64,000 nucleotides of DNA from Hormiphora californensis. Its lineage: Eukaryota; Animalia; Ctenophora. The notes beneath the pieces were generated by a model, which was not told the origin of the DNA, searched no databases, and saw only the letters and a program-made list of their open reading frames with translations. The DNA is taken from NCBI GenBank assembly GCA_020137815.1, contig CM035362.1, positions 5,022,001 to 5,086,000 of the forward strand, read 5' to 3'. Position 1 is the stretch's first letter, and each line of letters starts with the position of its first letter. Of the stretch, positions 901 through 48,446 are shown piece after piece. The position numbers and the translations under genes were made by a program.

Positions 901-33458
<32,558 letters not shown>

Positions 33459-41280: not shown

Positions 41281-42829
41281 AAGAGAGAGAGATACAAAGA
41301 GCGAGAGAGAAAAAGAAAGAAATCTCGACGTTATTTGGAAGGCCCCACCCACGCAACTGACACCTCCGGAGCATTGGCAACAAACACACACACACACACG
41401 TCGCAGAAAGAAAGACAGAACACAGACACAAAAGTATATTGCTTCCTCCTACAATATCTCTCACAAAGAGAGTGCAATTTGAACTGTGCCTACGTACAAT
41501 GTATCTGATGACGTGTTGTGTGGGGACGTGGATAAAGAGGATAATTTATCTCAGGGATTATGTAGTGGGAAGTGGGAAGATCTCAAATACTAGATAGATA
41601 TAATTATATCACCTATTATAAATATCAGCTATAATGATACACGTCTGTAGGCTCTCAGCTTCGATAGTCCCAGAACTTCAACGGACTATGACGTCATATA
41701 ATTAGTAACCATGGTAACCAATAGCATCCTAGTCATGATGTCACCATCGTGACGTCATATCATCATCGTGACGTCACACATCAATGTGGAGGAGCAGGAG
41801 TTGACTTTGCAGCAATAGTTGCCTCGTCAATTATCTTAAGCAGTTTGCTGCACTGATCTTTCACCCCCATTATACACTTCAAATCGACCTGAAATAATCA
41901 GTGATTTGAAAAATAAAAATTTGGGCCGGAATTAGACGGTCACCATGTTTGCCATATTTCCATGTAAACGGTTTTAGGGAGATTTTAGGGGATGGGACAA
42001 CAGTGTGGAAAACTCCAAAATTTCATGCAAGATTGACTGATCGCACAAAAATGTGGTTTTGTCATATTGTCAGTCTTGCATGAAAGAATGTGGTTGCGAC
42101 ATTTTAATTTTAAATCGGCTGTAGCAAAAAAATAAACAAAATTTACAACGGACCGGAACGAATCCAAGACTCTGAGTGCTAATTAGGTAACAAAGGAGTG
42201 AGAGCAATAATTAATATGTACCAGCTGAGAGGGAGAGAGAGGTAGAGGAGTAGAGAGAGGAGTAGCTTAGAGAACTTGTTACTCTTGATAGGGAGAGAAC
42301 GATCGGAGTCATGAGCGGAGCGATCAGCTCAGGGAGAGCTAATCGAGACTTAATTAAAAATCATCTTCGTAGTGATATACAATTACAGACAGGAAAATAT
42401 TGCACTCTCTCTCTCTCTCTCGGTCCACTACACGCACCACTCCCGCATGGGGCCGTAAGGTCCCATGCGTGAGCAGGGTTAAATCCCCCGAGCCCGGATC
42501 CTGTTGGATCTGAGGGCCCGGAGGGCCTGCGGAGTAAAGGTAGGTAGAACAATGTACATAGGGGTATGTTGAACAATGTACATAGGGGTTAAAGTAAGGG
42601 AAAATATATAAAGGGGAATTAAAGCTCATAGTGACGGAGCAAAAGACCTCCTAAACTATCTGGAAAGAAGCCCAACCATCTGGAACGGAGCCTAAGAAGG
42701 GTCAACTTATCAGGAACAGAAGGAGCAAACCGTCTGAATCTAGGGAAACCTAGGGGCAAGCAGGAACGGGTATAAAGGGTAACAATTAAATAAATTACAA
42801 TAACAGTGGGAGACAGCTCAGGAGGTGAA

Positions 42830-45800
42830 TTACATATCGAGGACCTTCCGGAGCGTGTTCATCGAGTTGAAGAGGACTGACTTTTGGAGCTGTGAGGGGT
42901 ATAATTGGCGGGTTATAGCAGTCAGGTACTTCTCTAGTCGGGGACTGACTCCGCCAAGAGCTCCAATCACGATAGGGATGACCGTGGCCTTTTTAAGATC
43001 CCAAATTCGTGTGATCTCTCTCCGTAATTCTTGGTATTTCTCGATCTTTTCCATCTCCCTGTCCGAGACTAACCTATCTTTTGGTACGGCGACATCAATG
43101 AGTAGTGCCTCCTTCTTTATTTTGTCAAGAAGGACCAAGTCAGGTTTACATGCCTCGATGGGATTGTCCGTCTGTATGTGAAAGTCCCAGAGGATCTTGT
43201 AATTCTCATTCTCGAGAACTTTCTCTGCATAGTGGCTCCACCACTTTGATTCAGCAGGGAATCCGTAGTCCTTGCACATTCCCCAGTGTAGTGCAGCCGC
43301 TACTCGGTCGTGCCTGTGTTTATAGTCCCCGTTGGCCATCTTCTGACATCCATTTAGGATGTGTTCAACAGACTCGTTATGCTGGTTGCATATACGACAC
43401 TTCTCGGACTCTCCAGGTTGCTTCTCTATAGCAGCTTTCAGCCAGTTTGTGCGAGTGGCTTGATCCTGGGCGGCAAATATCTCGGCTTCGGTATATTTGC
43501 TGAGGCTCTCTTTGTTGAGCCAGGCCCAGGTCGCATCAGGGTCGCATCTCCCTTCTTCAAGTTGCATTAGGAATCGTCCATGGAGTGGCTTACTCTTCCA
43601 TTTCTCTATCAGCTGCGTCTCAAGTCTTTCTTTCAGGGTTTCGGCATCTTCTGGGGGTTCCGTCAGCATTCCTTCTTTTCCCATTGCTATTTTAAGTGCC
43701 TTTATCTTGGGATCAGTTGAGTTGTTGAAGAACGTCACTAGCCCTGTTTCTTCCCTTACTATGACGTCTTCAATCCTCTGGAGGCCTCTGCCTCCCATCT
43801 TTCTGCTCACATATAGCCGATCAACGTCGGTGTTGTATTTCAAGAACCCTCTTCTTAGGATCTTCCTGGTTGTCATGTCTAATCCTTTGGCCTCTGTGGC
43901 AGTCCAATCCAGTATTCCGGCACCGTATCGAATCACTGGTATTGCCCACGTGTTAATTGCCACGGCGAGGTTTTTACCAGACAGGTTGGAAGACAGGAGT
44001 TTCTTCACTCTTCTAGTGTATTCAATCATTACCTTGGCTTTCATCTCTTGATGTAGGATCGAGTCAGCCTCCAGGATACCAAGGTATTTATATCCACCAT
44101 CTTCCACTTCCGGGATTGTCTTTCCACTTGGTAGATCTATTCCCTGCATTCGACTCCTGACTCCGTTCACGATGTCTAGTGCTCCACATTTGGATATACC
44201 AAAGGACATGTTAATGTCAGTGCTAAACTTCTCGGTGACAGCTAACAGCTGCTGGAGGTCCTCTTTTGAGCTAGCGTATAGTTTAAGATCGTCCATATAG
44301 AGGCGGTGGTTGATATCAATATCTGTGGCGGGTGCTTCTGGATCAGATATGGTGTAGCCTCTTCCTTGGGCAGCTAGGAGCAAGGACAGGGGGATCAGTC
44401 CAATAATAAAATGTATCGGGGAGACAGAGTCTCCTTGGAAGAGGCCTCTTTTAATGTGGACTTTGCCTAAGGTGGAGCCGGATTGGACTAAATTAACTAT
44501 ACACTGCTGGAACGATGTCTCGAACAGTCTTATGATCTGTGGGTTTATTTTCAGCATTTCCATTGATTTCAGAATCCAGGAATGTGGGATCGAATCGTAC
44601 GCCTTCTGGTAATCAATGAAGGCCATATACAGGGAGGACTTGGTCCGTTTGCAATGACGCAGTATAAGTTTGTCGATTGCCAACTGTTCTTTACATCCCC
44701 TGCTCTTCTTGCGGCAACCCTTTTGCTCTTCAGGGAAGAGTCTGTTTACGTCGAGGTGTAGGTATATGTCTTCTGACAGCATTCCTGTATATAACTTCCA
44801 GAGGTTTGGGAGGCAGGTTATGGGTCTGAAGTTCCCCGGATCGCTCATTCCTTTCTTGGGGTCCTTTAGTAGCAGGTATGTTCTGCCTTCAGTCATCCAT
44901 CCTGGGACCTGGCCTGTAGTAAGACTTTCATTGAGCAGCTCAGCTATCCGTCCATGGAGACAGGTTGTGTGCTTGATCCAGAAGGCATGCAGGCCATCTA
45001 TACCTGGGGACGACCAGTTGGTCATTCCCTTCACACGGGCAGACACTCTTTCCGTGGTGATCTGGAATTCCTCTTGCTGGTTGACCGCCTCAAAGTTCTC
45101 TTGGATGTCATCTAACCACTCCGCTTCAGTGTTGTGGCCTACGTCATTCTCCCATATGTCTTTCCAGAAGTTAAGTGTCCTCGTCTGGTCCTCTGGTGTA
45201 GATTCGTTATAGCCTTTCTTGGGCAGGAGTGGGTATCTTCTATAGATAGTATCTATAGTTTGGAACTTCTGGGTGGTTCCTCTGCTCATTTCGGTCAGCC
45301 TGGAAAGGTCTGAGCGAAGTTTGGCGACACTTTCCTCAAGTCGTCGCAGCCACATCGGTTGCTTGTTCCTTCTGGGGGAGTTACTGGTGGTTTCACTAGG
45401 TGCCTCAATGCCCATTTGTTCTCGGACCACATGTGCCACGGCCATTAGAAGAGTGTTCAATGTGGTGAGGTCTGGGGTTTCAAAGGACTTGATAACCGGG
45501 CTGAGTCTATCAATTGCCACACGTAGCTTCCCCCATGGGACCTGTCTCAGGTCTGTTACTTTGATGGAGCTCGGTTCCTCGAGCAGTTTCTTGAACAGCT
45601 CCCTGATTTCCGGGTTCGGTGATGGCCCTTCCTCCTCCACTGGGTTTGTGGGGGGTTCGATGGCTTCTGGGGGTGGGTTGTCTTCTAGCACAGCCTGTCG
45701 TGCCGATTCAGTTGCTTCACGGTCGGCTATGGCCGCTGTTCTGATTTCCATCAGCTTCTGTGGTGAAAGGAGTCCAGACTGAGTTATAGATCTCAGTTGG

Positions 45801-46324
45801 GATCTAAGCTGGTCATCAGTTTTGGAAGGGTAGGTTGTCTTTGACCACCTTTCCTCCACTCGGTTCCATACTCCTCTTTTGTCCGGTTGTGAGTACGAGT
45901 GGATGAACACGAGCGTAATGTTCATTTCAGTGGTCCATTTCGTTCGTGGCGCTCTAGTTGGGGGTGGTGGTGGGGGTGGGGTGTCGGTGTCCCCATTGGC
46001 CGAGGTACTCGGACCCGCAGTGTTATCATTCACCGTGAGGTCCACTTCCGGGAGTATATTTAGGCCAGATGCTGCTAGCCCTGCTAGCATTCGCTGATCT
46101 GCCATCTCCTGCGGTGTTACCATGTGTCCAGATTTCTCTATTGATCTGAACTGGCTTGAGAGTTTGGCACCTGTTAATGGATCGTGTCCCTTGTCTTCCC
46201 ATAGGCGTTCGAGCCTCTTCCAGGATCCGGATGTGCCTGGATTGCTGCTGTAGTAGCAGTACACCAAGTCTAGGTTCTCTTGCTTAGACCAGACCTTCCT
46301 TGGTTTACGGGTGTTAGTACTCAT
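42830..46324 (-). CDS. R4-clade ORF: duplicated N-terminal Myb-like motif, reverse transcriptase, CCHC finger, restriction-like endonuclease
   Basis: SPGIDG, FRPITCL, FIDYQKAYDS, GLFQGDSVSP, YMDD, CRIC..ESVEHILNGC, RHD, KPD..LIDVAVP..KIEKY. Confidence 0.95.
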   Translation of the reverse strand: MSTNTRKPRKVWSKQENLDLVYCYYSSNPGTSGSWKRLERLWEDKGHDPLTGAKLSSQFRSIEKSGHMVTPQEMADQRMLAGLAASGLNILPEVDLTVNDNTAGPSTSANGDTDTPPPPPPPTRAPRTKWTTEMNITLVFIHSYSQPDKRGVWNRVEERWSKTTYPSKTDDQLRSQLRSITQSGLLSPQKLMEIRTAAIADREATESARQAVLEDNPPPEAIEPPTNPVEEEGPSPNPEIRELFKKLLEEPSSIKVTDLRQVPWGKLRVAIDRLSPVIKSFETPDLTTLNTLLMAVAHVVREQMGIEAPSETTSNSPRRNKQPMWLRRLEESVAKLRSDLSRLTEMSRGTTQKFQTIDTIYRRYPLLPKKGYNESTPEDQTRTLNFWKDIWENDVGHNTEAEWLDDIQENFEAVNQQEEFQITTERVSARVKGMTNWSSPGIDGLHAFWIKHTTCLHGRIAELLNESLTTGQVPGWMTEGRTYLLLKDPKKGMSDPGNFRPITCLPNLWKLYTGMLSEDIYLHLDVNRLFPEEQKGCRKKSRGCKEQLAIDKLILRHCKRTKSSLYMAFIDYQKAYDSIPHSWILKSMEMLKINPQIIRLFETSFQQCIVNLVQSGSTLGKVHIKRGLFQGDSVSPIHFIIGLIPLSLLLAAQGRGYTISDPEAPATDIDINHRLYMDDLKLYASSKEDLQQLLAVTEKFSTDINMSFGISKCGALDIVNGVRSRMQGIDLPSGKTIPEVEDGGYKYLGILEADSILHQEMKAKVMIEYTRRVKKLLSSNLSGKNLAVAINTWAIPVIRYGAGILDWTATEAKGLDMTTRKILRRGFLKYNTDVDRLYVSRKMGGRGLQRIEDVIVREETGLVTFFNNSTDPKIKALKIAMGKEGMLTEPPEDAETLKERLETQLIEKWKSKPLHGRFLMQLEEGRCDPDATWAWLNKESLSKYTEAEIFAAQDQATRTNWLKAAIEKQPGESEKCRICNQHNESVEHILNGCQKMANGDYKHRHDRVAAALHWGMCKDYGFPAESKWWSHYAEKVLENENYKILWDFHIQTDNPIEACKPDLVLLDKIKKEALLIDVAVPKDRLVSDREMEKIEKYQELRREITRIWDLKKATVIPIVIGALGGVSPRLEKYLTAITRQLYPSQLQKSVLFNSMNTLRKVLDM

Positions 46325-46604
46325 GTCGAATAAGATGAGTAAGTTTGGGGGGTGAGTTTCAAACCAATCACTGTGTATACATAGTCATCGGTTTGTTAGA
46401 AGAAGAGCCGGGTTTGGGGGTCTTAACACTGCCACCGGTGCACAGCGGTAACGGAATCCCACCGCCACATTTGGTCCGTTAGTAGATGGTTTTTCCCGGC
46501 CATCCTTGCAGCTTTTCAGCACGAACCGACACTTTCAGCGTTCGGGTGTGTATCTATATGTCTATATGGTGGAACTGGAACGGGGACTTATGTGAAGCAT
46601 TATG

Positions 46605-47425
46605 ATCTAACTGGAACGGGGTAAACTATCCTCTCACTCTCAGGAACAAGGTAAACTATCCTCTCTGGAACGGGGCAACTATCCTCTGTGAAGCGGGGTA
46701 AATTATCCTCTCTGGGACGGGGTAAACTATCCTCTCTGGAACGGGGCAACTATCCTCTGTGAAGCGGGGTAAATTATCCTCTCTGGGACGGGGTAAACTA
46801 TCCTCTCTGGAACGGGGCAACTATCCTCTGTGAAGCGGGGTAAATTATCCTCTCTGGGACGGGGTAGACTATCCTCTCTGGAACGGGGCAACTATCCTCT
46901 GTGAAGCGGGGTAAATTATCCCTTTCGGGACGGGGTAAACTATCCTCTCTGGAACGGGGCAACTATCCTCTGTGAAGCGGGGTATATTATCCTCTCAGGG
47001 ACGGGGTAGACTATCCTCTCTGGAACGGGGCAACTATCCTCTGTGAAGCGGGGTAAATTATCCTCTCTGGGACGGGGTAAACTATCCTCTGTGAAGCGGG
47101 GCAACTATCCTCTGTGAAGCGGGGTAAATTATCCCTTTCGGGACGGGGTAAACTATCCTCTCTGGAACGGGGCAACTATCCTCTGTGAAGCGGGGTAAAC
47201 TATCCTCTCTGGGACGGGGTAGACTATCCTCTCTGGAACGGGGCAACTATCCTCTGTGAAGCGGGGTAAATTATCCTCTCTGGGACGGGGTATACTATCC
47301 TCTCTGGAACGGGGCAACTATCCTCTGTGAAGCGGGGTAAACTATCCTCTCAGGAACAAGGTAAACTATCCTCTCTGGAACGGGGCAACTATCCTCTGTG
47401 AAGCGGGGTAAATTATCCCTATCTG
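46605..47425. repeat. Higher-order tandem array (23-24-bp monomers, 71-bp trimer) in the R4 5' UTR
   Basis: CTATCCTCTCTGGAACGGGGCAA / CTATCCTCTGTGAAGCGGGGTAAA / TTATCCTCTCTGGGACGGGGTAAA cycling. Confidence 0.95.
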
Positions 47426-47678
47426 GATCGGGATCCTATTAATGAAATGGATTAGGGGGTTAGCAGATTAGTATCAGGATTGGTTAGTGGGTTAGTAGAT
47501 AAAGGGGCATCGGAGGTCCACAGGTGGCTGGAAGGTGCCTGTTCCACTGGTAACCCTGAGCCGGAGAAGGCGGGGTAGGAACGTAGTAGTTGGCGATGAT
47601 ACACTGTGGGCCGCCTAGCCAAGAAGATCTTTTTGTGTTTTGTATTTTATGATTTTTTTCCCGTATTTTTGATACACA

Positions 47679-47806
47679 GCCACGCTTAGCCACGGCCACA
47701 CGGACCTGAAAATCGATCAAGGGGAAAAGGGGATGGGGAAAAGGTACTCCGTGTGACCCTGTTGCCCGGGGGAAACCGATAGGAGGTGGTGGCAGGTGGA
47801 CCAACT

Positions 47807-47811
<5 letters not shown>
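47679..47811 (-). ncRNA. HDV-like self-cleaving ribozyme at the 5' end of the R4 element
   Basis: P1 GGGGGAG/UUCCCCC; P2 GCCAC(C)/G(C)GUGGC; P3 ACC/GGU; L3 UCCUAUC; P1.1 GG; J1.1/4 GCAA; P4 CAGGGUCACACGGA/UCCGUGUGGCCGUG; J4/2 GCUAA with catalytic C. Confidence 0.85.
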
Positions 47812-47897
<86 letters not shown>

Positions 47898-48446
47898 TTA
47901 TTAATTATTGCTCTCACTCCTTCGTTACCTTATCACTCGGAGTCTTGAATTCGTTCCTGTCTGTTGTAAACTTTATTCTCTTAAACCTATATTTTTGCTA
48001 CAGCCGATTTAAAATTAAAAAGTCGCAACCACAATTTTTGCGTTAAAATTTATGGAGTTTTTTTGCGATACAGAGCTTCTCTCATTCAGAATGATCTGAG
48101 CAAGGATTAAATATGGAAGAAAATGGAAAAATACTGGGTTTGACCGGGAATTGAACCAGGGACCTTCAGAGGGTCATGCTCGAAGCTTTACCAATAAGCC
48201 ATCAAACTCTTTTTAGGATGTATGTATCATTAAATGTTTGCGATTTGATCTGATAAGAAAGAGAATATGCGATCAATTCCGGTCCTATTTCTGACAGTGA
48301 TAGCTACTGCATCAGGTTAGTGGATAAATTGTGATTAACTTGCAAGACAACTACGCAGCCTTTACACTTTTGTTTTGAAACTGGTTGTTTATTTTATCGA
48401 GCAACTAATCTGCAAAATAATCTTGCTGCAACAATTTGTTTTGCAG

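What the first reader, a model, noticed from the sequence alone, without database searches (positions are those of the whole stretch)
47679..47813. HDV-like ribozyme defining the 5' end of the R4 element at the microsatellite junction
Seen: on the minus strand every element of the nested double pseudoknot is present (P1 GGGGGAG/UUCCCCC, P3 ACC/GGU, L3 UCCUAUC, P1.1 GG, GCAA, 14-position P4 with a pyrimidine-rich insert, J4/2 GCUAA, P2 GCCAC/GUGGC). The predicted cleavage site (5' of G at 47811) lies two bases from the (GA)n target. Established: HDV-like ribozymes process R2 and some other non-LTR elements out of host co-transcripts. Deviations from the canonical fold: U at the G25-equivalent, G1-C instead of G1-U, and a bulge in P2. 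Inference: this element frees itself from read-through transcripts of any (GA)n locus.
Basis: partly seen in the sequence, partly recalled or inferred. Interest (0 to 1): 0.85.

Follow-up and report, generated by a model that had tools for sequence, protein, structure and literature searches.

The report
Delta-type ribozyme heading a microsatellite retrotransposon
The first 134 bases of a jumping gene that sits inside a GA repeat carry the pairing pattern of the hepatitis-delta self-cutting RNA and likely cut the element's RNA free at the repeat's edge, as already shown for the silkmoth element Dong, but one changed active-site base predicts slow cutting.

Summary
The fold is real. Every HDV-type helix is present at minus strand 47812-47679; it is the only descriptor core in the window (strict form 0 of 100 shuffles). 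A second copy differs at 0 of 91 core and 7 of 43 loop positions. Other runs show a compensatory P4 pair and no change at catalytic positions. It heads an RT/CCHC/RLE non-LTR element flanked by (GA)n in 2 of 2 full copies. The arrangement is published: Bombyx Dong self-cleaves off a (TAA)7 leader (PMC3774820), and a distant relative found here repeats it (L001). Corrections: the cut is more likely 5' of G47812 or G47813, at the junction, than G47811; R4 membership is only indirectly supported; this copy's ORF lacks a conserved 54-residue block; 'any (GA)n locus' is untested. What is unusual: U at the G25 position, with no variant listed in 8 runs or L024. In HDV that swap costs 290-fold (PMC3386971), so cleavage is probably slow and is unshown. 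Earlier scan notes describe a different HDV variant on other DNA. Verdict: variant of a known system.

The parts
47813..47894 (-). (AG)41 upstream microsatellite, target side of the 5' junction
47806..47812 (-). P1 5' strand, preferred register (predicted cut 5' of G47812; alternatives 47813 and 47811)
   Evidence: variant at 47773
47794..47805 (-). J1/2
47789..47793 (-). P2 5' strand (C47788 unpaired, or paired with G47685 across a bulged C47684)
47775..47787 (-). P3-L3-P3: U47784 = U20 equivalent, C47783/C47782 = P1.1 partners, U47779 = G25 equivalent (non-canonical)
   Evidence: no variant listed; identical in L024
47768..47774 (-). P1 3' strand
47762..47767 (-). P1.1 GG and J1.1/4 GCAA
47691..47761 (-). 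P4 (14 positions) with a 43-nt variable pyrimidine-rich loop 47747-47705
   Evidence: compensatory A-U>G-C at 47760/47692; 8 of 14 substituted sites lie in the loop
47684..47690 (-). J4/2 GCUAA(GC) with the predicted catalytic C47689
47679..47683 (-). P2 3' strand
46650..47426 (-). 71-bp tandem repeat (10.9 copies) in the 5' UTR
42830..46384 (-). Single ORF, 1184 aa stop to stop (Met at 46324 matches the start of P0002): RT (YMDD), CCHC knuckle, PD..D..K restriction-like endonuclease, no N-terminal zinc finger; lacks a 54-aa conserved block upstream of RT
42421..42829 (-). 3' UTR, shared with the short derivative L024 (89% over 373 aligned bases)
42405..42420 (-). (AG)8 downstream microsatellite, 3' junction

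Best explanation
This is an HDV-type double-pseudoknot sequence forming the first 134 bases of an RT/CCHC/RLE non-LTR retrotransposon, likely of the R4/Dong lineage, that sits in a (GA)n microsatellite, and it likely self-cleaves, probably slowly, at the repeat/element junction (5' of G47812 or G47813) to release the element's RNA from read-through transcripts. Shown: the helices, their conservation and one compensatory pair across copies, the position at the junction in 2 of 2 full copies, the same layout in a (TAA)n-flanked relative. Inferred from HDV, R2 and Dong: Mg-dependent cleavage with C47689 as general acid leaves a 5'-OH RNA whose fold protects the uncapped end; the family's protein (supplied in trans, since this copy's ORF lacks a conserved block) nicks another (GA)n, copies the RNA by target-primed reverse transcription and joins the 5' end by G microhomology, which fits G-runs of 6 or 7. 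Inferred from the HDV mutant: U at the G25 position lowers the rate, so some templates may stay uncut and carry (GA)n, which could itself anneal to the target.
For: Single descriptor core, strict form 0 of 100 shuffles. L024: 0 of 91 core differences against 7 of 43 in L4 (Fisher p=0.0002) and 14 of 188 in the UTR behind it (p=0.006). Of 14 substituted sites listed are in L4, 1 at the unpaired C47684, 2 form one compensatory pair (X8 and X17, one sample), 2 keep pairing by a one-sided change, 1 breaks P4 in a contig that loses similarity at 47749; none touches L3, P3, P1.1, P2 or C47689. (GA)n on both sides in the window and in L024. L001, 30% identical over residues 32-1181, lies in (TAA)n on both sides and has an HDV fold starting at the first base after the repeat. 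Dong self-cleaves off 7 TAA repeats in co-transcription; R4 and Dong cut at their 5' end (PMC3774820). The U.U mutant of antigenomic HDV is one of only 5 active combinations of 16 (PMC3386971).
Against: U.U is 290-fold slower than U.G in antigenomic HDV, and that paper calls U/G perfectly conserved in natural variants; R2 ribozymes lacking this G showed no cleavage (Nasonia G>A, sow bug). A purine at -1 is unfavourable, G worst, over 25-fold below U (PMC1874588 abstract). Nested folding favours neither P1 nor P2 (probabilities under 0.2), whereas each of 2 control folds recovers one of them (L001 P2 0.74-0.89, L009 P1 0.51-0.97), and P4 probability falls 0.98, 0.50, 0.19, 0.01 as the (GA)n leader grows to 21, 41, 82 nt (pseudoknots and Mg not modelled). 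Only one two-sided compensatory change was seen, none in P1, P2 or P3; an invariant core also fits a promoter or protein site. In 2 of 3 RNA-run contigs that reach the region, 38-39 letters run on past 47799, beyond the predicted cut (may be DNA or precursor). With a repeat target a precise junction needs no cleavage.
Confidence: 0.6

Rival explanations
1. The fold forms but hardly cuts. It is kept as a stable 5' module (nuclease shield, translation start or protein-binding site), and the 5' junction is made from uncut RNA whose (GA)n leader anneals to the target, or from an internal start at the G run.
For: U at G25, unvarying; 290-fold penalty; purine at -1; predicted competition from the leader; engineered R2 templates benefit from the fold 'not necessarily the activity' (PMC11331408 passages); R2 elements that keep upstream target sequence give uniform junctions; long upstream repeats, 41 and about 24 units.
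Against: C47689, U47784, P1.1 and J4/2 A's are all invariant; U.U keeps measurable activity and normal Mg affinity; the P1 change in run X9 strengthens the stem that defines the cut.
Confidence: 0.28
2. The sequence is conserved as a DNA-level internal promoter or protein site, as in the dual Pr77 hallmark of L1Tc, and the HDV pattern is a decayed ancestral relic.
For: The core is nearly invariant, so most pairs are uninformative; nested folding does not recover P1-P3; some trypanosomatid elements with adequate predicted folds were inactive (PMC4035085 passages).
Against: A two-sided change keeps a P4 pair and one-sided changes keep P1 and P4 pairs, while the loop drifts freely.
Confidence: 0.1
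3. Chance pairing of a G-rich and C-rich low-complexity stretch.
For: Loose descriptor cores in 5 of 100 shuffled windows; fold z-score 0.87; no Rfam hit.
Against: Strict cores 0 of 100; position at the exact 5' end; variant pattern; same layout in L001.
Confidence: 0.02

Closest known systems
Dong (Bombyx mori, R4 lineage) 5' HDV-like ribozyme, PMC3774820
   Same: Microsatellite-flanked non-LTR element with an HDV-like ribozyme that cuts at the repeat/element junction; Dong released a 21-nt (7 TAA) leader in co-transcription.
   Different: Target is (GA)n, not the TAA listed for all three Dong elements in PMC3812793; core has U at G25; host is probably a comb jelly (closest named proteins: Pleurobrachia 72%, Bolinopsis cluster 55%); activity untested. 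The Dong ribozyme sequence itself was in a supplement that could not be read.
R2 and R4 HDV-like ribozymes (PMC3774820; Ruminski 2011 seen only as cited there)
   Same: Same helices; P2 mismatches and variable P4 are common in R2; short internally deleted derivatives keep both ends, as L024 appears to.
   Different: Protein has no N-terminal zinc finger and matches solved R2 proteins only over the RT region; target is not rDNA.
HDV genomic/antigenomic and CPEB3 ribozymes
   Same: Topology, U20, CC/GG P1.1, catalytic C in J4/2.
   Different: U20.U25 in place of U20.G25; G1-C in place of G1.U; purine at -1.
Kibi (APE-type) elements targeting TC microsatellites (PMC3812793)
   Same: Same microsatellite class as target.
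   Different: Different endonuclease class: the element here has an RLE, not an APE.

Membership tests
HDV-like ribozymes | Nested double pseudoknot P1, P1.1, P2, P3, P4 can pair | tested here: met
HDV-like ribozymes | Pairings conserved or covarying among copies | tested here: met
   One compensatory P4 pair, two one-sided keeps, one break in a truncated contig, loop variable; P2 and P3 invariant, hence uninformative
HDV-like ribozymes | Catalytic C in J4/2 (C-N-R-A), U20 and P1.1 C-G | tested here: met
   C47689, U47784, C47783/C47782 with G47767/G47766; no variant listed
HDV-like ribozymes | U20.G25 pair in L3 (called part of the family signature in PMC3386971) | tested here: not met
   U47779 in the window and L024; no variant listed in 8 runs
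HDV-like ribozymes | Match to an Rfam HDV model | tested here: inconclusive
   No hit, but 4 of 5 loci with descriptor folds were also missed
HDV-like ribozymes | Mg-dependent self-cleavage 5' of G1 | not testable with these tools
   Needs an in vitro assay; RNA-run contigs cannot show ends
RLE-encoding non-LTR retrotransposons | Single ORF with RT, CCHC and C-terminal PD-(D/E)xK endonuclease | tested here: met
R4 clade (R4, Dong, Rex6) | RT phylogeny groups with named R4/Dong/Rex6 proteins | not testable with these tools
   No protein named R4, Dong or Rex6 among the 120 listed of 324, the 120 listed of 633 or the 10 clusters looked up; reference alignment unreadable
R4 clade (R4, Dong, Rex6) | No N-terminal zinc finger (feature recalled, from no call) and closer likeness to Dong-type than to R2 proteins | tested here: inconclusive
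   No zinc-finger motif in residues 1-450; near full-length match to the (TAA)n-flanked L001 element (E 8e-114) against RT-only matches to R2 (E 6e-30); L001 is Dong-like by its flanks only
Microsatellite-specific non-LTR elements | Most copies flanked by the same repeat at both ends | tested here: inconclusive
   2 of 2 full copies; 3 of the 32 listed contig pieces (of 4047) run from the ribozyme into the repeat; no genome held

The most novel reading that the evidence does not exclude
A natural, family-wide HDV-like ribozyme without the 'invariant' G25 that drives a (GA)n-targeting Dong-like retrotransposon family in comb jellies: either a fast U20.U25 enzyme compensated elsewhere in its core, or a deliberately slow one whose pyrimidine-rich P4 loop pairs with the (GA)n leader, so that repeat length tunes how much target sequence the template keeps for 5' joining.
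Probability: 0.2. Interest if true: 0.6.

Novelty: new variant of a known kind. Interest (0 to 1): 0.33.

Why it matters
The headline idea (a ribozyme freeing a microsatellite-targeting element at the junction) is already shown for Dong, so this mainly extends the system to a (GA)n target and, probably, to comb jellies. The part a specialist would care about is the core: G25 positions the catalytic metal in HDV ribozymes (PMC13635239 passages) and is treated as invariant, so a natural family with U there is a ready test of how far it is required, and descriptor searches that fix G25 would miss it.

Tried and rejected
No host genome was held, so copies could not be counted or aligned. Rfam at gathering and E-value thresholds: no HDV family. 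Fold z-score 0.87, uninformative for a pseudoknot. Self-BLAST: no second copy in the window; of 23 listed (GA/TC)8+ runs only 2 flank this element. Metagenome pattern scan: 1 of 13 loci was a homologue with the fold, 12 had none. Viral pattern scans: 8 of 20 loci had descriptor folds, none with this L3; 0 of 5 loci with this L3 folded. Prokaryote genomes: 0 of 54 candidate stretches encoded a relative. RNA ends: the tool skipped the repeat at the junction; one RNA contig has 11 letters past 47799 and would end near the cut, but a DNA contig ends there too (13 letters) and two RNA contigs run 38-39 letters on, so no verdict; RNA-run contigs do not prove transcription. Summed depth is not a copy number. 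Alternative L3 registers that would place a G at position 25 were tried by hand and none keeps P3. The tRNA-like stretch upstream was considered as a read-through promoter and set aside because a T run follows it. Papers not held: Ruminski 2011, Xiong and Eickbush 1993, a review asked for by a recalled id. Supplements of PMC3774820, which list the L3 sequences of 18 R2 ribozymes, Dong and R4, could not be read and may hold a natural U at this position. Nine paper searches listed no natural U20.U25 HDV-like ribozyme, no (GA)n-targeting R4/Dong element and no comb-jelly R4 ribozyme; Repbase and most subscription papers were not searched.

Full report
Observation. On the minus strand the (AG)41 repeat ends at 47813 and is followed by a G run and a complete HDV-type layout: P2 5 of 5 Watson-Crick, P3 3 of 3, L3 UCCUAUC, P1.1 CC/GG, a 14-position P4 with 13 pairs and a 43-nt loop, J4/2 with C47689. 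A descriptor written after seeing the candidate finds this one core in 64 kb; loose cores appear in 5 of 100 shuffled windows and strict ones in 0 of 100. Rfam has no hit but also missed 4 of 5 loci with such folds.

The element. Downstream lie a 5' UTR of about 1490 bases with a 71-bp tandem array and six upstream ATGs, a 1184-aa ORF with RT, CCHC and a PD..D..K endonuclease and no N-terminal zinc finger, a 409-base 3' UTR and (AG)8. The search gave 324 relatives among 7994 candidates, the best 85-86% identical. Named ones among 10 clusters looked up are from Pleurobrachia (72%), Bolinopsis (55%) and Anolis (43%), so the host is probably a comb jelly (inference). This copy lacks 54 residues present in 36 of 36 aligned relatives and is probably inactive. 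No protein named R4, Dong or Rex6 turned up. The R4/Dong placement rests on the domain layout (defining features recalled), on RT-only matches to solved R2 proteins and on the near full-length match to L001.

Conservation. L024, 1 of 13 metagenome pattern hits, is a 984-base non-coding derivative with both ends and (GA)n on both sides. It differs at 0 of 91 core positions, 7 of 43 loop positions and 14 of 188 UTR positions (p=0.0002 and 0.006). Contigs of eight runs were laid on the region: 1757, 900, 878 and 501 records in four DNA runs, which points to many copies but is no copy number, and 7 records in four more runs. Fourteen substituted sites were listed in 47679-47812: 8 in the loop, 1 at the unpaired C47684, 2 as one A-U>G-C pair in P4 (one sample, DNA and RNA run), 1 G-C>G.U in P4 (two studies), 1 in P1, and 1 that breaks P4 in a contig that stops matching at 47749. 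None touches L3, P3, P1.1, P2 or C47689. This supports selection on structure, but only one change is two-sided.

Where the cut falls. In run X9 (organism B) 60623 of 62041 depth units carry U>C at 47773 (2% or less in the other three runs), and no change is listed at 47806. That allele pairs fully in registers 47812 (-14.3) and 47813 (-13.4) and mismatches in 47811. Copies with six Gs (L024; 2-11% of depth) cannot use 47813. So the shared register is 47812, exactly where (AG)n ends; 47813 remains possible in 7-G copies, where it has A rather than G at -1. My odds for this copy: 47812 0.45, 47813 0.35, 47811 0.2.

A parallel case. L001 is 30% identical over residues 32-1181, lies between (TAA)17 and (TAA)98, and has an HDV fold whose G1 directly follows the repeat, with G at position 25.

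What is known. PMC3774820 (passages and parts 4-6 of 7; supplements unreadable) reports that R4 and Dong ribozymes cut at the element's 5' end and that Dong released a 21-nt leader of 7 TAA repeats in co-transcription; P2 mismatches occur in about a third of R2 ribozymes, so the bulge is unremarkable. PMC3812793 (passages) lists TAA for Dong elements and TC for Kibi. PMC4640811 (passages) states that RLE clades are mostly target-specific, with some HERO and Togen families in microsatellites. PMC6765202 (passages) reviews release from co-transcripts.

What differs. Position 25 is U, with no variant listed. PMC3386971 (passages and Table 1) treats U/G as a family signature and measured U.U at 0.006 per min against 1.74, one of 5 active combinations of 16. 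PMC13635239 (passages) found a 1000-fold loss for a G25 O6-thio change. Two R2 ribozymes lacking this G did not cleave. PMC1874588 (abstract) ranks -1 as U > C > A > G. Nested folding recovers P4 but not P1 or P2, whereas each of two control folds recovers one of them, and the (GA)n leader is predicted to displace P4 as it lengthens (pseudoknots and Mg not modelled). PMC11331408 (passages) argues that the fold helps templates even apart from activity. PMC4035085 (passages) reports well-folded but inactive relatives and leader effects. PMC9901934 and PMC13188248 (passages) added nothing. Nine searches listed no natural U.U example, but the main compilations were not available.

RNA evidence is neutral: contigs from three RNA runs cover the ribozyme; the junction repeat was skipped by the tool, two contigs run past the predicted cut, one would end near it, and so does a DNA contig.

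Earlier scan notes: none for this genome or this protein; two notes on another genome describe an HDV-like head with an expanded L3 on a short retroposon. They were not checked and are not used as support.

Verdict. It works like the Dong and R4 5' ribozymes and has their topology, but fails one signature feature, so it is filed as a variant. Probability that the fold is real and selected about 0.9; that it cleaves usefully at the junction about 0.6. Interest 0.33.

Noticed in passing
window 47859-48039 and 42083-42259: The two flanks are inverted repeats of each other (81% over 188 bases): the target (GA)n lies inside a small fold-back or MITE-like element.
   Followed up: partly
L024 about 480-680: The middle of this 984-base non-coding derivative holds inverted copies of the 5' UTR repeat unit and is strongly A>G biased (12 of 14 substitutions in 42 bases; 11 of 24 in the repeat part), like A-to-I hyper-editing of a hairpin RNA. 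One contig only; may be RNA-derived or an artefact.
   Followed up: partly
window ORF 42830-46384, near residue 392: In-frame loss of 54 residues: 36 of 36 aligned relatives (chosen from the 120 listed) have 70-83 residues where this copy has 23. This copy is probably inactive.
   Followed up: yes
L001 2399-6370: Dong-like element with (TAA)17 before and (TAA)98 after, an HDV fold with canonical G25 starting right after the repeat, and an ORF in three pieces; it lies in a record of the viral collection, and its closest named relatives are beetle proteins.
   Followed up: partly
window 48136-48208 (-): Weak tRNA match (33 bits), same strand, about 320 bases upstream of the element; possibly a SINE head.
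   Followed up: no
window 47615-47825, run X1: One contig joins the upstream repeat to position 47615 (table 5c), hinting at tandem short copies of the 5' 200 bases.
   Followed up: no
window 13034-16192 (-): 1052-aa ORF with LDL-receptor class A repeats and a rhodopsin-type 7TM domain.
   Followed up: no
L005, L009, L020: Viral contigs with HDV-like folds of canonical L3; L005 has a second, Rfam-scored HDV ribozyme, and L005 and L020 have tRNA genes beside them; L009 is a 1706-base contig.
   Followed up: no
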